Of a DNA stretch of 64,000 nt, positions 12,554-60,288 are shown piece by piece (within the stretch, counting starts at the first letter, position 1; every line of letters begins with the position of its first letter). The notes under the pieces are model-generated. The model did no database searches, was not told where the DNA came from, and saw only the letters and a program-made list of their open reading frames with translations. The stretch lies in NCBI GenBank assembly GCA_000004985.1, contig GG738896.1, one strand, 5' to 3'. Both the position numbers and the translations under genes were made by a program. Origin of the DNA: Naegleria gruberi (taxonomy: Eukaryota).

Positions 12554-15038
12554 TTAAGCAACGTATTGAATCGTGGAAGAATCCTTAGCATCACGTTCCA
12601 AATATTCTCTGGCAATCAAATCTTCAACTCTTCTCTTAATCAACTTTGGATCTGGTTGGAAGTGAGAACTCAATTGTTTGATAGTTTCAGTCATCAATTC
12701 TTGATACTTGAGAATCTTTCTTGTCTTCATAATACGAACAAGAGCAGCATCAATAACGTATTTTCTTTCTTCTTGTGCCTTTTGACTGATATCTTGCTTT
12801 TGTTGTTGAGTAACGTGAACAACAACGTTTGGAATCTTAATTCTTCTTTGTGGACTTTCAAAATCAGCATTAACAGTAAACTTATCAGTTGGATTAACAG
12901 CCTTCTTATTACCATCAGTACTCAAAAGATTGGCAGCTTTAGTAGCACAGAGAGAAAGTAAATTTCTCTTAATTTCTGTTGGTGGTAAATTCAAAGAATT
13001 TTGAATATCTTGGAATGTCATTTCAGCTTGGTTATTGAAAAGTAATAAAATACAAGCTTGATAAGTGTTGGTTGAAATTTCCTTTGTACCAGCAGAGAAA
13101 CGACCAGTAACAATGGCAGTACCAAGAGAGTGAATCCAATCTAACTTTCTTTGTTGGGTAATAGAATCGTAGAACTTTTTAAAAGTATCTAAACAAACAG
13201 ATAATTCTTGTGGAATTGTCATCTTATCAATCTTCATTTGAGGCCAACAACCAAGTGTTAAAACTTCTGGATTGAAATCAAATGGTAAAGTAATACTCTT
13301 ATTTGTTGTATAATTCTTAAAGTCATTTCTCAAATTTTCTGAAATACTCTTATCTTTGATCATACCTTCTAACTTTTGAGTGAATGACATACCCATACGC
13401 ATCTTAAGTTTACCAATAAAGTTTCTTTCAGCATCCAAGTTCAAACGACTTGCAACCAACAATCTCTTACTCAAATGTTCTCTATAGAAAGCCAAGAACA
13501 TATCCTTATCTTTCAAATAACCGAACAACTTGACAATATTTTCTAAAAGTTCATCCAAGTTTTCTTCACCAACCTTATCAACTTCCTTCATAATAGAATC
13601 ACAATATGTTGAAATTAATTCAGCAGTTGTAGATCTATTCTTATCACCTGGTGAAACAACTTCTAAATTGACAAAATGAGTGAAAGCATCTCTCAAAGCA
13701 TCCAAGAAGAGTGGATTTTGTTTAAATTGGATATTAACCAATTTAGAATAAGTTAAATGTAATTTGAGTAACTCTTCAATATATCCTTTGGCATCAATGT
13801 TTTCTTGTTGACATTGGTTAGTGTGAATTTTAACACCTTCTTCAGTAATAAAATCTCTAAGCTTTTCTGACATTGGTTGCAATGATTCAATTCTATCAAA
13901 CAAAGTATACATTCTAGATAAATCTTCATGCTTATCACCAGTCTTTAACAAAGCAACGAGACCTGAACCATCCATGTTCAAAAGTGTTGTTTGATGCTTT
14001 CTAATAAGTTCATCTTGAACTTTAGAAATAAGTTTAGGCTTGGTATTTGTATGAAGATAAGCAGTAGCTCTTCTTTCTTCACTTTCTAATTTTTCTTCTG
14101 TCTTTTTCATATAATCTGGACAAGAATCTTCAGCGATCCATTTAGAACTTTGAATACTATAATAACTTTGAGTGTTTTGTAATAAAGTACGTTCAAAATC
14201 TTCATCATAAGCATTCAAACTACCCAAACCCATTTCAATGAAGAGAGTAATACCATCTTTCATCATTGATCTATCAATTAAATCACCTTCTCTTTCCTTG
14301 TAAATTTTATCTAAAAGGGCTTGAGCCATATCTTTCTTGATACTTCCATAAACCAATTCTTGATAACACTTCAATCCTACATTTCTCAAGTCATCACGAT
14401 TGTTGTGTTTGGTATAGTATCTATCAAGATAATTGTATAATTTGACCATGTAACGAACAACAAGTTGGTGATCTCTCCATCTCTTAACAGCTTCCATCAA
14501 TAAACCATCACCTTGTTTTTCCTTTAAAGCAACAACAACCAATGACTTTAAATAATCACTAATACAAGTTCTATAGCGATCATACAATAATTCTGTTGCT
14601 CCTCCCTTCTTGTTGGTATCAACCTTTTGTGTACACAAATTGAATACAGTACTATTTAGTTTGTTGTTGTTATTATTATTTTTGATCATTATCAAATTTG
14701 ATCACGTATAACATTTTGTTATTATTATTGTTATTGGAACGTCATCATCATCCATGATGAATAAATAAAATTTATCATTAAAATAATTTTTTGATCGCAC
14801 CACTATTTTCAATACTAAATACTACTTACGAATACAAATCAGCATATTCATTATAGTCAAAAGGCTTGCTCATATTCTTGTCCAAAAAGTCGATCAATTT
14901 ATTGAAGCCTTGTTGCAAGTATTTCCACTTGCCTTCAAAGTCAGGAGCTTCTTGTTTACCAGAACCTGTAGCTTTTTCTATGGTTTGGACGTCCTTCTTG
15001 GCATCAGTCTTGCCAATAAAACTTTGAAAGAAAGGCAT
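12554..15038 (-). CDS. cullin (E3 ubiquitin ligase scaffold), 2 exons, about 768 aa
   Basis: Exons on minus strand: 15038..14830 and 14651..12554. The 178-nt intron has a GTAAGT donor and an AATAG acceptor. The C-terminal neddylation/winged-helix region IDAALVRIMKTRKILKYQELMTETIKQL…YLERDAKDSSTIQYVA is diagnostic. The N-terminal exon aligns to the cullin N-terminus (…YNEYADLYS). Confidence 0.9.
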
Positions 15039-19926: not shown

Positions 19927-19999
19927 CGCCCACCGTGGGGGTCGAACCCACGACCACAAGGTTAAGAGCCTTGCGCTCTACCGACTGAGCTAGACGGGC
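19927..19999 (-). tRNA. tRNA-Lys (anticodon CUU)
   Basis: The reverse complement GCCCGTCTAGCTCAGTCGGTAGAGCGCAAGGCTCTTAACCTTGTGGTCGTGGGTTCGACCCCCACGGTGGGCG folds as a cloverleaf. A and B boxes are present. It closely matches eukaryotic tRNA-Lys-CTT. Confidence 0.9.
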
Positions 20000-20336: not shown

Positions 20337-20409
20337 CTCCCCCTGGTGGGCTCGAACCACCGACCTGCAGATTAACAGTCTGACGCTCTACCGACTGAGC
20401 TAAGGGGGA
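20337..20409 (-). tRNA. tRNA-Asn (anticodon GUU)
   Basis: The reverse complement TCCCCCTTAGCTCAGTCGGTAGAGCGTCAGACTGTTAATCTGCAGGTCGGTGGTTCGAGCCCACCAGGGGGAG has a 7-bp acceptor stem. The anticodon loop is CTGTTAA. The T-arm GGTGGTTCGAGCCCACC is typical of tRNA-Asn. Confidence 0.85.
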
Positions 20410-53524: not shown

Positions 53525-54181
53525 ATTACAGCGATCACTATTCATGACAAATCAATAATTTGATGGGATTGTAAAGTATTTTAACATTTCCAATACGGTT
53601 TACAACATGACACTTATTTCAGAAGCATCTTTACAATATAATCAGCTAAATCTAACAAATGATATCATCAAGAGTCAATTATGATCTTCTTCATGCTTTA
53701 AATGTGATACTATTTCATGTGTTTCTGAACAATAGGGACCAGACACTTTGAATATTGTAATAGTTTCGGTTGGAATAGCTTTCAGATCACCAGTCGTCTA
53801 TTGAAAGAATGGAATCATCTTCTTGGCCACCTTTTTCAATACTTCCATTTCAGAGTTGGATCTATTTTTAAAGAAAGAAATATACCATAATGAAATGAAT
53901 GTTTTCAACAATCTGAAGCTAAGAGAGATTGTAAATCATTACTGAATTTGAGGCATGTAGTGTAATTCTAACATCACGATCAGCTCATTTCTCTGAAGTG
54001 TTGGTGGCGAAACTCCACCCATGCCTTTTTTACAAAAATTTCATTAAGAATTTGAATGGAACTTTGGTATAAGTTTTATCTGGTTCAAAACCATCAATTT
54101 TCGAATGGTCTTTTAGTACTCACAAATTAAACTATAACAAATTAAGAGATAGCTCATTATCTTAATTTTTATATCAACAAT

Positions 54182-54256
54182 GGCTACGGCCATATCACGA
54201 TGAATGCACCTCATCCCGTCCGATTTGAGAAGTTAAGCAGTAGTCTTTTTGGGTTT
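54182..54256 (+). pseudogene. internally deleted 5S rRNA pseudocopy
   Basis: The first about 61 nt are identical to the 5' part of the intact 5S gene at 57621-57740. They are then joined directly to the last about 11 nt (GTAGTCTTTTT) and a T-run. About 55 internal nt are missing. Confidence 0.7.
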
Positions 54257-54786
54257 TTTAACAATAGTTTGGAAACATTTTTAATAATTCTTGGTCAATT
54301 CTAATCTTTTTAAACAATTTTTAACTCTTACCACTCCATTTATCAAATAATTCAGTCTTGTAAAGCTTCCTTATTTGAATCTTTGTGACATGACGATTTT
54401 TTGATGATTTCAAAGGATTTAATTTGTCCACACTGTATCACGCTTGATCCTTTCTACAAAAAGTTGATCTTTCTAATGGAACTTCAGTAATTCTCTCAAT
54501 AACTTTCTTAATTTTCAAATACTCATTTTCATTTACAGTACTATGATTGAAATATTTCACTTTCGTTTACAAACAGTATCTTACCTGTCCAAATAGGATT
54601 ATCAGTTCAACTTTTAGAGTTTCCTGTAGGAAAGTTTAAAGGGTTAAACTTCTATAACGTTAAAATATAATAACTTTTTAACAATAAAATACTCAACTGA
54701 TAGTGGAATAGTTGCTTAGTATTGGCATTATTGAAATTCCATAAAAAAATATATTTAGCATTATGAAAGTAATTGAGATCTTAACT

Positions 54787-55875
54787 TTAATCAGCAAATC
54801 CTGAAGTACCTCCATAATCACCTCCTCCTCCTCCACCACCATAATCATATCCACCACCACCAGAGTAGTCTCCACCACCACCATATCCTCCAGAATAATC
54901 ATAACTTGGTGGCTCATACTTGTATGTTTCTTCAACAGTGGTTGTTGAATATCCTCCATATGGTTCACTTGTAGTAGATGGAGCGTAATAACTAGTTTCT
55001 TTTTGTCTTGTTGGTTGGTCGACCTTTGTAGATGGGGCTGTTGTCGACATTGGAACATCAACTCTTGGATGTGCTGAAACACTTGGTTTGTAAACTGAGC
55101 TAGTTCCCCAATTCTTCTTTAGGAAATAGATTGTGACAGCACCTATTAAAATTATTGCTATAACTCCTACTATAATTAATGGGATTCCAATAGCTTGAAA
55201 ATAAAAATCTGATTTCATACTAGTACCAAGTCCAATTATCTTAATTTCTGGTTTGAAATAAGAATTAGAATTTAATCCTGTCATGTTGAAAGTGGCCTTA
55301 TACTGATTGTCAATTGTCGAGACTTGACCATTGACACAAGTCAAATTATAGGATGAGATTGATGAATCAAATAGGATTGTGGTTGAAATGGATGAAATAA
55401 AGGAATTATCCTGATAGTGATATCTCCAAACAGTGTCTGTTGACTAGTTTTCTCATTGTAATGATTAATAAAATTGTAAACTTACAACTTCAAGATTTGG
55501 AATTAGGGAAAATGATATTCTGAATGAAAACTTGGTTAGTGCATTTGAGGGAGTGGCAGGACTCAAAGTCGAAACAATAAAATAGGATTCAGAACCACTT
55601 TCTAACTTGGAAGAAATCGAATAGGTTGAATCCGAAATAAATACCTTGATTGATAAAGGATCAACACTTGTTGCAATGTCACGTGGAATAGGTCTTCCAA
55701 TCCTTGAGTAACTTCCGTTAAAATTATATTCAAAGTCTTCAACAATGTTCATGGATGATCCTTTTTCCAAGAATTGAATATTCGAAACGATAGAAGAAAT
55801 GGAATATGATTTTTGAGCATGAATTGATGAAAGTTGATACAAAAGTATCATCAAGATAACAACAACCTTCATCAT
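54787..55875 (-). CDS. type I membrane protein with Gly/Tyr-rich cytoplasmic tail, 2 exons
   Basis: Exons on minus strand: 55875..55486 and 55443..54787. The 42-nt intron has a GTAAGT donor and a CTAG acceptor. Signal peptide MMKVVVILMILLYQLSSIHAQ. Single TM helix IGIPLIIVGVIAIILIGAVTIYF. Tail with GGYGGGGDYSGGGGYDYGGGGGGGDYGG. Confidence 0.6.
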
Positions 55876-56241
55876 CCCACCATCCGTGTATTCCAACATT
55901 TTTTTTGATGTTCAAAAGTTTATTCAAGTTTATCCACAGCTCTGATAACTTGCTTTATGTGGGTACCTCGCAGTGGAATTGGTGAGACAATGTCCAAGTT
56001 TGTCCTAGCTGGAATCAGAGTGGAAAGGATCATGAAAAGAGATCAGTATCTTGGAAAGTTCAATGTGAAAACTGGTTGTTGGATTTAATCTGACATGTAT
56101 TGAAGAGCCACTATACGTTATGAATAATTGACTCAAAACTTCATTGGTGTTATTCTTTATCATTCCAATTTTAATATCATACCTGTCCATATTCTTATAA
56201 TCCTCGATAGAATTCTTGACAAAATGACACAAATTCCACCC

Positions 56242-56291
56242 AAGGTACAAGGTTTGATAACTTGGGTGACAAGGTACAAGGTTTGATAACT
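56242..56291. repeat. 21-bp direct repeat x2 (AAGGTACAAGGTTTGATAACT) separated by 8 bp
   Basis: Exact duplication visible in the sequence. It lies in an ORF-poor 1.7-kb region. Confidence 0.6.
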
Positions 56292-57620
56292 GATCTTTTT
56301 GAATTTCCTTATGACTATTGCAGTAAACGCCAAACTCAATTGCATTTCAGTAATTAATGGGATGAAATCATTGTGCAAAGTATGCTGTTGACCTGTTGAT
56401 AAAAAACTTGAAAGTTTTGGGAGTTTTTTCAATCTGTTGGCCAAGGTAGTGAAGAACTCTTTCATTTATGTACCTAAAATGCAAAGAAAGTTCCAAATAG
56501 ATCTGCATGTTCACATGATGAGTGCAAACATATTTTAAATGCTGCCAAAGGACATTTAAATTGTTTAAGTTTCTATTAATTATTAAAAAAATTAAGGTAC
56601 CAATCTGCATGTTCACAAATCCCCCATTCACAAACCATGGCTGGTAAGGAATGCAGCAATCATCTATGAACGAGGAAACCTACAGCGAAGCATGTTTCCA
56701 GTTCGATATCATGCTCAAGATATGTGACTACAGAGTCTTCATCTTGGTTAACCTCAAAGGTCAGATTGACTCAAAAAAGTCGAGTTTATGTATTCCTACA
56801 GAAAAGATCCTGTAGAAGTACAGTCAATGGTTTTATCAAGTTTCATTTGTGAGGTTTGTGATATTGGTTTTGAATGTGTGAAAAGTGAGGTTAAAAAATT
56901 GTGGTACTTTTATGTGAAAAATATAAATTTCGATTCAAGAAAATAATTGAATGTTGATGGCTTCAAGATCAGCTCACAATTTTTAAGAACTTCCTCCTGA
57001 AAGTTGTAAGAAACAACTAATTAAGTGAAGAATTTCCTCATTCCTTGCACAAATACTATTATAATCTGTGAAATGACAAAAAGACAGGTTCCTAATTGAG
57101 ATGAGGTGATATTGATCCTCCCTATGAACTTGTTGATCAAATGAAAATTACATTCATGAATGTTTGCTTCAAAAGTTGAAAGTGGCATTTCCTAAAATAT
57201 AAATAGAAAGAGAGCTGGCTTGAATGTGACAAAATTGTCTCTTGTTCAATTAAAAAAAAAGAAACCTCCTGCAATGAATCTTCAGTCGAGTATTTTCATA
57301 GATTCATTGAGCCCTCTTGTCCAATCAAATCGTTCTAGAAAGAGTGGCGGAGGGCTGATAATTAATGTAGAGGGAGGAAATCCCTGATTGTAACCAAGTA
57401 TTTGCAGTAATGTGAATCCACAGCAGTTAAAAGAGTCTCCTTAATAGTAAACAACAACCCGAACAATTTGGATAAGATTGAATTTACAAGTTTTTCAATA
57501 AAGTTCTTTAAATTGTCAAATGATTTGTATTTAATTTTCTTCAATGTTTGTACATTTCCATTTCAATATTCTCTACATTTCAATATTTAAAGCTGTAAAA
57601 ACAATAAGGTGAAATTAAAA

Positions 57621-57740
57621 AGACTACAGCTTCACAGGTTCCCAAGTTGTCTCCAACCTCAGTACTGATGTGGCTCGACGATGCTTAACTTCTCAAATCG
57701 GACGGGATGAGGTGCATTCATCGTGATATGGCCGTAGCCA
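57621..57740 (-). rRNA. 5S ribosomal RNA gene (chromosomal copy) with downstream T-run terminator
   Basis: The reverse complement (T)GGCTACGGCCATATCACGATGAATGCACCTCATCCCGTCCGATTTGAGAAGTTAAGCATCGTCGAGCCACATCAGTACTGAGGTTGGAGACAACTTGGGAACCTGTGAAGCTGTAGTCTTTTT matches the 5S consensus. It shares the GGTTGGAGACAAC block with Dictyostelium 5S. It ends in a TTTTT Pol III terminator. Confidence 0.85.
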
Positions 57741-58074
57741 TTCACTACTTCAAAATGTATAATTTCAATGTACCTTCCATAACAGTTCATCCTTGCAAAA
57801 TCCTTAGTACCTTATTCAGACCAAAAACTTCAATCAACAAGAAGGTTATTCCAGTTGACAATTTCTGACTTAATGAATTGAACAATTCAATGTTGACTGT
57901 ATTTTCCTTTCCAAACAAAGACTCAATTATTCCATATTTGCACTGATATCGGGAGATTAAATCTGGTAATGTAATTCTTCATGCAACATCATCAGCACAA
58001 CGTTACCTGTTCATTTGCAACTGAAGGTTCTTCTTCAACCCCAAGATGATCATCCTCGAAGTTTCAATATAAAA

Positions 58075-60288
58075 ATGTCCTCACTCGTTCTTGCATTGTC
58101 CCTCACCCTGGTTGTGATGGTTGTTGTAGTGTGGTTGGTTTTATTCAAGGAAACACCAGAGACTGATCCATTGAGTATCATGTTCAATGATGATCCGAAC
58201 AGCATGGATAAACATCAACATGTTGAATATCAGGATCCTAACGAAGTATTGGAAAAGGGAGAATACATGGAAGAAACCAATATTTACAAGTTGAGATTGT
58301 GGAGTAAGCAAATGCCGAATAGGCCTGCTCTCTGGTATAAGAATCAATCAAGTCAGGCAAAGGAGTACATTCCTATCACTTTTAAAGAGTACAATGACCA
58401 TGTTCAAGAGGTTGCCAAATCACTTCTTGCTCTCGGAATTAAAAGAGGTGAGACTTGTTGTATCATGTCTGGAAATAACAAGGAGTGGAATTATTTAGAT
58501 TTGGGTTGCTTGACTGTTAATGTTATTTGTGGAGGAATTTACTTTTCATCATCAGAACTTCAAGTATTGCACTTGTTGAATCACTCAGAAGCAAAGATGG
58601 TTGTTGTGGAAAAGAAGGATCATTTTGAAAAAGTTAAGAGATGTATTTCCAAGTTGACTGATTTGCAAAAAGTTGTGTTTATTAATGAAAGTGTTTTGAA
58701 TGAGTGTTTGAAGGAAAACCCAGAGCCACTTTTGAATGCTTCTGGTATTCAAGTTCAATTGTGGAGTTGGAGCGATTTTATCAAACTTGGAGAAAATATT
58801 ACTCAAGACCAAGTTGATGAAATTTTCAAGTCAATCAAGACAAATGATGTCTGTACCGTGATTTACACAAGTGGTACAACAGGTGCACCAAAAGCTGTTC
58901 AATTGACATATAGAGCAGTTACCTCAGCTACTCTTGCAGCTAGAACAATTGCTAAATATAATGAAACTCATCCAGATTTTGATATTGAGAATCATAATAA
59001 TACCTATCTCAGTGTTCTCCCACTTGCTCATATTGCTGAGAGATTGTTAACTATTTATATACCTTTGAGATGCGGATATCAAGTTTATTTTGCTGAAAGT
59101 ATTTTCACTTTGTTGAATGATTTACAAGTTGTAAGACCTCATATTTTCTTTGGAGTACCAAGAATTTATGAAAAGATCAAATCTGGTATTGAAACCAATC
59201 TCAGCAAGGTCAATCCAATTGTTAGATATTTAATTCAACACTGTATGAAACAAGTATCCAAATACAATACTTTGGTTGCTATGGGAAGAAGCACTAGTTC
59301 ATTGTTGGATTTCAGAGCTAAATTAATTTACAAGTTCATTGTTGGACCATTGAAGAGAAAAATTGGATTTGATAGAACAAGAGTTTTCGGAGTTGGAAGT
59401 GCACCAATTTCAAAGGATGTTATGATATTCTTTTCTGGATTGGATGCCATGTTAATTAACATTTATGGTTCTTCTGAATCATCAGCTATGGGTATGTATA
59501 GATAGTTCAATTTGAAAATTCCTTAATATAATTATCTGCATAATTAACAGGTTCATCCATTAGACCAAGAGCTCTCCATTTCGATAGTGGTATGTTTAAT
59601 AATTGATTTGACATTTCTTAACAATGAAACAGTTGGTGTTCCAATGCCAGGTACAGAAATTAAAATAGATGTCGATGGTGAAGTGTTAATTAAGGCACCA
59701 TCAACAATGGTTGGATATGCTAAAGATGAAAAGTCAACCAAAGCTGCTTTCACTGAAGATGGATTTTTGAGAACTGGTGACTTGGGTATATTAAGGAATG
59801 GTTTCTTAAAGATTACTGGTAGAAAGAAGGACATTATCATGACTAAGAATGGTAAGAATGTTGCCCCAGCATATTTTGAATCATCATTGCAACATGACAT
59901 TATCAATGGAAGCTTAATGATTGGAGATGATAAAATTTTCCTCTCTGCCATTGTTTCCCTTGAACCAACCCAATTAATGAAATATGTCAAAGATCACCAT
60001 AAGGAATTTGGTGTTGAAAATGTAGATTCTCTATCAGATTTAACACCAGAAAGAGCTCTGAATACCTACCATAATCATCCAATTATTTATAAATTGGTTG
60101 AATCTCTCATCAAACAAGTGAATAGTAAGGTATCAGATGCTGAACAAGTTAAAAAGTTCAAAATTCTGTCCAAATCCTTCTCAATAGATGGCGGTGAATT
60201 TACTGCAACTTTGAAAACCAAAAGACATGAAATTTTGAAAAAGTATGAAAAGGAAATTGATGAAATTTACTCTGGTGTTAAGGAATAA
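58075..60288 (+). CDS. long-chain fatty-acyl-CoA synthetase (AMP-binding superfamily), 3 exons including a 39-nt microexon
   Basis: Exons: 58075..59491, 59551..59589, 59633..60288. Introns of 59 and 43 nt, with GTATGT donors. AMP-binding motif VIYTSGTTGAPKAV. YGSSESS (YGxTE-like). GVPMPGTEIKI. TGD…ITGRKKD. An N-terminal TM anchor follows MSSLVLALSLTLVVMVVVVWLV. Confidence 0.85.

What the first reader, a model, noticed from the sequence alone, without database searches (positions are those of the whole stretch)
54182..57740. Chromosomal 5S rRNA gene and an internally deleted inverted 5S pseudocopy bracketing a membrane-protein gene
A complete 5S rRNA gene with a T5 terminator lies on the minus strand at 57621-57740. 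3.4 kb away on the plus strand (54182-54256) is a copy whose first 61 nt are identical. It then jumps to the last 11 nt plus a T-run. The deletion junction shows GC(A) microhomology.

Flanking sequences differ apart from a shared AATGG immediately 5', so these are separate insertions or duplications rather than one assembly artefact. In D. discoideum, 5S is carried on the extrachromosomal rDNA palindrome. A dispersed chromosomal copy with a truncated partner is unusual there. It is informative about species identity or about Pol III-gene retroposition.

The inverted pair flanks a type I membrane protein gene and 1.7 kb of ORF-free DNA.
Basis: seen in the sequence. Interest (0 to 1): 0.6.

Follow-up and report, generated by a model that had tools for sequence, protein, structure and literature searches.

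The report
Naegleria 5S gene plus dead copy

Summary
The sequence observation holds. A complete 5S rRNA gene lies at 57621-57739(-) (Rfam 97.1 bits, threshold 38). An inverted partial copy lies at 54182-54250(+). It consists of 5S nt 1-58 joined directly to nt 113-119 plus the T-run, and all 69 nt are identical to the full gene.

The interpretation rests on the wrong organism. Two window proteins are 100% identical to Naegleria gruberi proteins. In that species 5S genes are already known to be nuclear, separate from the rDNA plasmid and dispersed: 279 loci on 117 scaffolds (Feng et al. 2012). This gene is almost certainly their entry R33462. In that catalogue 72 of 279 loci have a neighbour within 6 kb, and 20 entries are short.

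The partial copy scores below the Rfam threshold (30.9 bits). It lacks the intermediate element, box C, helices IV/V and half of helix II. It lacks the upstream TTGAAATTATA element shared by the full gene and a second Naegleria 5S gene. Its fold is no better than shuffled sequence. It is best read as a young pseudogene.

The "ORF-free" DNA contains a U3 snoRNA gene (56599-56827(-), 76.1 bits). The bracketing looks incidental. Interest is low.

The parts
57621..57739 (-). Complete 5S rRNA gene (119 nt), one of N. gruberi's dispersed nuclear 5S genes. It is a minority sequence variant: A108/A109 unpair 2 bp at the base of helix V.
   Evidence: Rfam RF00001 97.1 bits, model 1-120. Box A at nt 50-64, an IE-like GTCGAG at nt 61 and box C at nt 80-97 with 2 mismatches. 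Matches Table S1 entry R33462, scaffold_52:57620-57736, similarity class 0.7333 against a modal 0.75. Two non-canonical pairs are flagged by cmscan. The L005 copy has G/T at those positions and folds 3.5 kcal/mol better.
57617..57621 (-). T5 run that ends the full 5S gene (Pol III terminator type).
   Evidence: Read directly from the sequence.
57758..57768 (-). Upstream TATA-like element TTGAAATTATA at -29..-19 of the full 5S gene.
   Evidence: Identical 11/11, at the same distance, upstream of an independent Naegleria-type 5S gene on metagenome contig L005. Homology between the two loci runs from just past the T-run to exactly this element, 57618-57768. It is the only exact occurrence in the window. 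A TATA box for N. gruberi 5S genes is reported in PMC3369914.
54182..54239 (+). Partial 5S copy, 5' block: 5S nt 1-58, 100% identical to the full gene.
54240..54250 (+). Partial 5S copy, 3' block: 5S nt 113-119 (GTAGTCT) plus TTTT, 11/11 identical to the end of the full gene. Followed by GGG and T6 (54251-54259), which the full gene does not share.
   Evidence: I5. The whole partial copy scores 30.9 bits against RF00001, below the gathering score of 38.
54176..54181 (+). AACAAT immediately 5' of the partial copy. It recurs at 54260-54265 just after the T5-GGG-T6 tail, so it is a possible 6-bp target-site duplication (weak evidence).
   Evidence: Read from the sequence. The background frequency of such a 6-mer recurrence in this window is 2.8%.
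54787..55899 (-). Protein-coding gene between the two 5S copies: exon 1 55899-55486, intron 55485-55444, exon 2 55443-54787. The 356-aa product has a signal peptide, one TM helix and a Gly/Tyr-rich C-terminal tail. No known family.
   Evidence: Gene model and translation, ORFs, no Pfam match.
56599..56827 (-).
   Evidence: Rfam RF00012 76.1 bits against a gathering score of 34, model 1-219. Sequence and flanks.

Best explanation
The window is nuclear DNA of Naegleria gruberi, probably the first 64 kb of JGI scaffold_52.

**Full gene.** 57621-57739(-) is an ordinary member of that species' dispersed, loosely clustered nuclear 5S rRNA gene family. Its unit consists of an upstream TATA-like element at -29..-19, an internal box A / IE / box C region and a T5 terminator.

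**Partial copy.** 54182-54250(+) is a young, non-functional 5S pseudogene made of nt 1-58 fused to nt 113-119 plus the T-run. It has lost 54 nt. These include the 3' strand of helix II, all of helices IV and V, the intermediate element and box C. It also lacks the conserved upstream element. It should therefore neither be transcribed like a 5S gene nor yield an RNA that can enter a ribosome.

**Origin (inferred, not shown).** I favour, at about 50% given that it is a pseudogene, insertion of a transcript-derived and internally deleted copy. Such a copy could arise by reverse-transcriptase template switching near the AAGC repeats, or by capture of a 5S fragment at a DNA break. The reason is that homology with the full gene starts 3 nt before the mature 5' end and stops at the terminator T-run. 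Decay in place of a once-complete gene is nearly as likely.

**Arrangement.** The inverted arrangement around a membrane-protein gene and a U3 snoRNA gene is incidental.

The confidence given is for identity and non-function, not for the origin step.
For: **Organism.** Two window proteins are 100% identical to N. gruberi proteins.

**5S family context.**
- 279 N. gruberi 5S loci are catalogued, unlinked to the rDNA. R33462 at scaffold_52:57620-57736 coincides with the window's gene.
- In my re-analysis of that table, the loci lie on 117 scaffolds. 72 of 279 have a neighbour within 6 kb against 22 expected. 20 entries are shorter than 113 nt, and five of those lie within 6 kb of another entry.

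**Full gene.** 97.1 bits, full-length model match.

**Partial copy.**
- 30.9 bits, below the threshold of 38.
- The IE and box C motifs are absent and only the box A core remains.
- Its MFE of -11.7 kcal/mol gives z = -0.19 against shuffles.
- Its upstream -29..-19 matches the conserved TTGAAATTATA at only 4 of 11 positions. The full gene and L005 match each other at 11 of 11.
- 69/69 identity to the neighbour implies a recent origin.

**Origin.**
- Homology is limited to -3 through T5.
- AACAAT flanks the insert on both sides.
- Retrotransposons, a possible source of reverse transcriptase, are reported in N. gruberi (PMC12344493).

**Precedent.** Truncated 5S pseudogenes are common in other dispersed 5S families (Rooney and Ward 2005 as cited in PMC5555474).
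Against: - No expression data exist here, so transcription of the partial copy is not excluded. It keeps the box A core, has TATA-like AT-rich runs upstream (TTTTTATATC at -16..-7) and has a proper T-run.
- TFIIIA was not found in N. gruberi (PMC3369914), so the real promoter requirements are unknown.
- The conserved upstream element rests on only two genes.
- For the insertion origin: there is no A-rich tail. The GGGTTTTTT after the T5 is unexplained. The 6-bp repeat has a 2.8% background and was found post hoc. The shared AAT upstream and the proposed duplication AACAAT cannot both be meaningful.
- I could not count the junction variant elsewhere in the genome.
Confidence: 0.85

Rival explanations
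1. This explanation reaches the same end state (a dead pseudogene) by a different origin. A complete dispersed 5S gene once sat at 54182(+) with its own flanks. It lost nt 59-112 in place by replication slippage or end-joining near the AAGC repeats, possibly followed by a T-to-A change.
For: - All dispersed 5S genes have unique flanks anyway (Table S1), so unrelated flanks do not by themselves require insertion.
- AAGC occurs at nt 54-57 and nt 108-111.
- Loose pairs of full genes 1-6 kb apart are typical of this genome.
- The upstream region is AT-rich, with ATTATC and a TTTT run roughly in register with the full gene (17/40 matches).
Against: - The upstream element shared 11/11 by the full gene and L005 is not present (4/11), although the retained body is 69/69 identical. 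The promoter would have had to decay while the body stayed perfect.
- The junction is not the clean microhomology product.
Confidence: 0.4
2. The 65-69-nt mini-5S is a functional, transcribed small RNA or a founder of a 5S-derived mobile element (SINE-like), not a dead copy.
For: - It retains the 5' end, the box A core, helix III / loop C and 6 bp of helix I.
- It ends in a Pol III-type T-run followed by a second T6.
- It is 100% identical to the gene.
- A possible target-site duplication flanks it.
- N. gruberi may not use TFIIIA.
Against: - Its fold is no more stable than shuffles (z = -0.19).
- It scores below the Rfam threshold.
- It lacks the conserved upstream element.
- No second copy of the junction exists in the window or in any fetched locus.
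- It has no appended body or tail of the kind 5S-derived SINEs carry.
Confidence: 0.05
3. The partial copy is an assembly or sequencing artefact, such as a chimeric read or a collapsed repeat.
For: 5S is a roughly 279-copy repeat, which can confuse assemblers. I had no read data.
Against: - The copy is embedded in unique sequence on both sides, with no discontinuity in composition.
- It sits between the 3' ends of two genes.
- A collapse would not create a clean 54-nt internal deletion with an intact terminator.
- Short 5S entries occur at about 20 other loci in the published catalogue.
Confidence: 0.03
4. One reading: a Dictyostelium chromosome carrying an unusual dispersed 5S gene outside the extrachromosomal rDNA palindrome.
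For: Only the AT-rich composition and the Asn/Gln-rich proteins resemble Dictyostelium.
Against: Two window proteins are 100% identical to N. gruberi proteins. The next best hits are N. fowleri (88%) and Willaertia (60%), and no dictyostelid appears among the named hits.
Confidence: 0.01

Closest known systems
Dispersed nuclear 5S rRNA gene family of Naegleria gruberi (Feng et al. 2012, PLoS One 7:e36878, Table S1)
   Same: Same organism. The full gene coincides with catalogue entry R33462 on scaffold_52. It is unlinked to the rDNA plasmid, has a TATA box plus an internal control region, is 117-119 nt long, and sits in a loose kb-scale cluster like many other entries.
   Different: The partial copy at 54182 is not in that catalogue. 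The scaffold_52 entries are 57620, 194080, 209738 and 212551. The full gene belongs to a minority similarity class (0.7333 against a modal 0.75) and carries two unpaired positions in helix V.
Truncated 5S rRNA pseudogenes in dispersed 5S families of filamentous fungi (Rooney and Ward 2005, as summarised in PMC5555474), and the classical Xenopus laevis oocyte 5S pseudogene (Jacq, Miller and Brownlee 1977; my own knowledge)
   Same: An incomplete 5S copy lying near an intact gene, called a pseudogene because the missing part destroys the 5S secondary structure. It is part of a multigene family with birth-and-death turnover.
   Different: Those pseudogenes are mostly truncated at the 3' end. Here the deletion is internal (nt 59-112), and both ends and the terminator are retained. 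The copy is inverted relative to its neighbour.
5S-derived SINEs (for example SINE3 of zebrafish; my own knowledge)
   Same: A 5' portion of 5S including box A, found away from a complete gene and possibly flanked by a short target duplication.
   Different: It has no 5S-unrelated body, no LINE-like or A-rich tail and no evidence of multiple copies. It keeps the true 5S 3' end and terminator.
U3 snoRNA (Rfam RF00012)
   Same: Full-length covariance-model match at 76.1 bits with the 5' hinge/box A region and the box B/C/C'/D regions aligned.
   Different: Low posterior probability in the central and 3' stem regions. An internal T6 run and a 15-nt repeat of its 3' end about 100 nt downstream are unexplained.

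Membership tests
5S rRNA gene (RF00001): full copy 57621-57739(-) | Covariance-model score at or above the curated gathering score (38 bits) over the whole model | tested here: met
   97.1 bits, model 1-120, E 7e-20
5S rRNA gene (RF00001): full copy 57621-57739(-) | Three-way junction with helices I-V intact | tested here: met
   All helices are present in the cmscan alignment and the MFE fold. Two pairs at the base of helix V are non-canonical (A108, A109).
5S rRNA gene (RF00001): full copy 57621-57739(-) | Pol III signals: internal box A / IE / box C, a terminator T-run, and (in this lineage) an upstream TATA-like element | tested here: met
   Box A at nt 50-64, IE-like GTCGAG at nt 61 and box C at nt 80-97 with 2 mismatches to the consensus used by Feng et al.. 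T5 at 57617-57621. TTGAAATTATA at -29..-19, shared 11/11 with L005. Function of these signals was not tested.
5S rRNA gene (RF00001): partial copy 54182-54250(+) | Covariance-model score at or above the gathering score | tested here: not met
   30.9 bits against 38. The match is obtained only by skipping 43 model positions.
5S rRNA gene (RF00001): partial copy 54182-54250(+) | Helices II, IV and V and loops D/E present | tested here: not met
   nt 59-112 are deleted. MFE -11.7 kcal/mol, z = -0.19.
5S rRNA gene (RF00001): partial copy 54182-54250(+) | Promoter elements (IE, box C, upstream TATA-like element at -29) | tested here: not met
   No IE or box C match. Only the box A core AGTTAAGC is retained. 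Upstream element matches 4/11.
Retroposed (RNA-derived) Pol III pseudogene | Homology to the source gene confined to the transcribed region | tested here: met
   Identity runs from -3 to the T5 run and the flanks are unrelated. Two independent full genes share 29 nt of upstream sequence.
Retroposed (RNA-derived) Pol III pseudogene | Target-site duplication flanking the insert | tested here: inconclusive
   AACAAT at 54176-54181 and 54260-54265. Background frequency 2.8%, and found post hoc.
Retroposed (RNA-derived) Pol III pseudogene | A-rich 3' tail or linked retroelement sequence | tested here: not met
   The 3' end is T5-GGG-T6, with no A-run or retroelement-like ORF nearby.
5S-derived SINE | Many copies sharing the same 5S-derived head and a non-5S body and tail | not testable with these tools
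There is one copy in the window and none in the 14 metagenome loci.
U3 snoRNA (RF00012): 56599-56827(-) | Covariance-model score at or above the gathering score (34 bits), full-length | tested here: met
   76.1 bits, model 1-219, E 8e-15

The most novel reading that the evidence does not exclude
The internally deleted 5S is not a one-off. It would be a transcript-derived, possibly still transcribed 'mini-5S' that has been copied through an RNA intermediate. That would be direct evidence that Pol III transcripts are retroposed in Naegleria, and hence a mechanism for how its roughly 279 5S genes became dispersed, or a nascent 5S-derived SINE.
Probability: 0.05. Interest if true: 0.45.

Novelty: new member of a known kind. 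Interest (0 to 1): 0.12.

Why it matters
The value is mainly corrective.

- It fixes the species attribution: Naegleria gruberi, not Dictyostelium. That removes the reason the finding looked unusual.
- It adds two small annotation items to a genome whose non-coding RNA genes are poorly annotated. One is an uncatalogued 5S pseudogene. The other is a U3 snoRNA gene.
- The sharp transcript-limited homology of the pseudogene, set against the 29-nt upstream homology shared by two intact genes, is a small clue to how a dispersed 5S family spreads. Anyone with the full genome could test it in minutes.

Nothing here bears on a long-standing open question.

Tried and rejected
**Reaching the N. gruberi record.** The look-up of encoding contigs failed for two window ORFs and for the two N. 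gruberi proteins P0001 and P0079. I therefore could not read the rest of the scaffold or the other 5S loci.

**Collecting more Naegleria 5S loci.**
- The single metagenome scan gave 14 loci, but only one (L005) is Naegleria-type. The other 13 come from other protists.
- Scans of genome contigs and viral contigs found nothing.
- I searched the protein database with the spurious 43-aa ORF that overlaps the 5S gene, hoping to pick up gene calls across 5S genes in other Naegleria assemblies. No candidates came back.

**Synteny test.** The adjacent acyl-CoA ligase has only one eukaryotic relative with a contig (L015, 55% identity). That contig has no 5S or U3 upstream and no other shared gene, so it says nothing about insertion versus deletion.

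**Ideas considered and dropped.**
- That U3 is Pol III-transcribed because a T7 run follows it. An internal T6 would terminate Pol III.
- That a 15-nt match between the regions upstream of the partial 5S and of U3 (I13) is a shared promoter. It is at chance level for 6 kb.
- That the cloverleaf-like fold at 53951-54031 is a tRNA. Neither ARAGORN nor the Rfam tRNA model supports it.
- Pfam gave nothing for the membrane protein or for the small ORFs in the 'ORF-free' DNA.
Full report

Yes. Rfam's 5S model (RF00001) matches 57621-57739 on the minus strand over the whole model at 97.1 bits (gathering score 38, E 7e-20). The gene runs straight into a T5 run at 57617-57621.

The repeat finder reports a 61-nt perfectly complementary inverted repeat, 54179-54239 / 57682-57742. 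A direct comparison shows that this is 5S nt 1-58 plus the three bases AAT immediately upstream. After nt 58 the plus-strand copy continues GTAGTCTTTTT. That is identical to the last 7 nt of the gene plus four further T. So nt 59-112 (54 nt) are missing and all 69 retained nt are identical.

A 29-mer from the 5' end occurs twice in the window and in none of 100 shuffles. A 31-mer from the deleted part occurs once. A sensitive blastn finds no other 5S fragments in the 64 kb.

Three details need correcting:
- The 3' block is 7 nt of 5S plus the T-run, not 11 nt plus a T-run.
- The microhomology is AAGC (nt 54-57 and nt 108-111), offset by one base from the junction. The observed AAGCAGTAG is therefore not the clean slippage product AAGCTGTAG.
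- The interval is not merely 'a membrane protein gene and ORF-free DNA' (section 4).

**2. Whose DNA is it?**

It is not Dictyostelium. GC content is 25-34%. A cullin ORF (12554-14695, minus) is 100% identical to a Naegleria gruberi protein from a 331,721-bp contig. It is 88% identical to N. fowleri and 60% to Willaertia.

**3. What is known about 5S genes in that organism?**

Feng et al. 2012 (PMC3369914) searched the JGI N. gruberi genome. They reported 279 putative 5S genes, not located with the rDNA units, with an internal control region and a TATA box. They found no recognisable TFIIIA.

Their Table S1 lists R33462 at scaffold_52:57620-57736. That is within 1-3 nt of the window coordinates of the full gene. 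The window is therefore very probably the first 64 kb of scaffold_52, and this gene is already catalogued. The partial copy is not listed.

I re-analysed the table:
- The 279 loci lie on 117 scaffolds.
- 72 have another 5S locus within 6 kb, against about 22 expected for random placement.
- 20 entries are shorter than 113 nt, and five of these lie within 6 kb of another entry.

A chromosomal 5S gene with a second, shorter copy a few kb away is thus the normal state of this genome.

**4. What lies between the copies?**

- *A protein gene.* On the minus strand, 55899-54787 encodes a 356-aa protein through one 42-nt GTAAGT...CTAG intron. It has a signal peptide, one transmembrane helix and a Gly/Tyr-rich tail, and no Pfam family.
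- *A U3 snoRNA gene.* The 'ORF-free' stretch contains this gene at 56599-56827 (minus), at 76.1 bits against a gathering score of 34. It has an internal T6 run, so I do not propose Pol III transcription.

I see no functional link between these genes and the 5S copies.

**5. What is the partial copy?**

Against RF00001 it reaches only 30.9 bits, below threshold, and only by skipping 43 model positions. I used the motif definitions of Feng et al. The full gene has box A at nt 50-64, an IE-like hexamer and box C at nt 80-97. The partial copy keeps only the box A core and has no IE or box C.

Structurally it has lost the 3' strand of helix II and all of helices IV and V. Its predicted fold (-11.7 kcal/mol) is no better than shuffled sequence, z = -0.19.

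The one other Naegleria-type 5S gene I could obtain is on metagenome contig L005. It is 97.5% identical and scores 106.3 bits. It shares with the window's full gene not only the gene but also 29 nt of upstream sequence, ending in an identical TTGAAATTATA at -29..-19. The partial copy has CTCATTATCTT at those positions, matching 4 of 11.

So the partial copy lacks both the internal and the upstream signals of an intact Naegleria 5S unit. It cannot form a 5S structure, and it is 100% identical in what remains. It is a young pseudogene. I put 0.85 on this.

**6. How did it arise? (inferred)**

Homology with the full gene begins 3 nt before the mature 5' end and stops at the terminator T-run. In other words, it coincides with the transcript. 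An AACAAT hexamer flanks the insert (54176-54181 and 54260-54265). That points to insertion of a transcript-derived or fragment-derived copy, with the internal deletion arising by template switching near the AAGC repeats. N. gruberi does carry some retrotransposons (PMC12344493).

The evidence is thin:
- The hexamer repeat has a 2.8% background frequency and was noticed post hoc.
- There is no A-rich tail.
- GGGTTTTTT after the T5 is unexplained.
- The 'conserved' upstream element rests on two genes.

In-situ deletion of a formerly intact dispersed gene is nearly as likely. An empty or filled orthologous site in another strain would settle it.

**7. A point about the 'complete' gene**

Compared with L005 it differs at nt 24, 108 and 109. 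A108 and A109 unpair two base pairs at the base of helix V (flagged by cmscan). They cost 3.5 kcal/mol in the predicted fold. The gene falls in the 0.7333 similarity class of Table S1 rather than the modal 0.75 class. It is therefore probably a minority variant of the family. Whether it is fully functional cannot be told here.

**8. Comparison with known things, and verdict**

The full gene is a known, catalogued member of a known dispersed 5S family. The partial copy is a new, uncatalogued member of a very familiar class. Truncated 5S pseudogenes sit beside intact genes in fungal dispersed families. From my own knowledge, the same holds for the Xenopus 5S repeat, for which the word 'pseudogene' was coined. 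It differs only in having an internal rather than a 3' deletion.

It fails the membership tests for a functional 5S gene. It meets only one of three tests for a retroposed copy, and SINE status could not be tested.

Interest is low (0.12). The most novel reading not excluded is a multi-copy or expressed mini-5S that documents RNA-mediated spread of Pol III genes in Naegleria. I put that at about 5%.

Noticed in passing
It contains an internal T6 run and is followed by a T7 run.
   Followed up: partly
window 56501-56515 and 56603-56617: A 15-nt exact copy of the U3 3' end (TGTGAACATGCAGAT on the minus strand) recurs about 100 nt downstream of the U3 gene. It could be a remnant of a partial U3 duplication or a 3'-end signal. 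Unexplained.
   Followed up: no
window 56241-56262 and 56270-56291: A 22-nt exact direct repeat (CAAGGTACAAGGTTTGATAACT), 29 nt start to start, in the non-coding stretch between the membrane-protein gene and U3.
   Followed up: no
window 53951-54031 (+): An 80-nt stretch folds into a four-arm cloverleaf-like structure with a 7-bp closing stem and is followed by T6. It lies 150 nt upstream of the partial 5S copy. Its z-score is only -1.74, and neither ARAGORN (with introns allowed) nor the Rfam tRNA model calls it. It could be a decayed tRNA-like element or chance.
   Followed up: partly
window 57621-57739 (-), 5S nt 108-109: The 'complete' 5S gene is a minority variant. A108/A109 unpair two base pairs at the base of helix V. 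The Naegleria-type copy on L005 has G/T there. Table S1 of Feng et al. places this gene in the 0.7333 similarity class against a modal 0.75.
   Followed up: partly
window 58075-60288 (+): The long-chain acyl-CoA ligase gene next to the 5S gene has, apart from Naegleria-type sequences, mostly unnamed best matches at about 30% identity, among which most of the named ones are myxobacterial (Archangium, Enhygromyxa). No N. fowleri orthologue appeared. Possibly an old bacterial acquisition.
   Followed up: no
window 19927-19999 (-) and 20337-20409 (-): tRNA-Lys(CTT) and tRNA-Asn(GTT) genes lie 340 nt apart on the same strand. They are the only other Pol III-type genes in the window.
   Followed up: no
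loci L001-L004, L006-L010, L012, L013 (metagenome contigs VFQM/VFQO): Eleven contigs from one or more unidentified protists each carry a solitary 5S gene with unrelated flanks. The copies differ by compensatory changes in helix II (GCAUA/UGUGC, GUGUA/UGCAC, GCGUA/UGCGC, GCUGA/UCAGC). One copy (L003) has a 6-nt deletion at a TACT microhomology near the 3' end. This looks like another dispersed 5S family with deletion variants.
   Followed up: no
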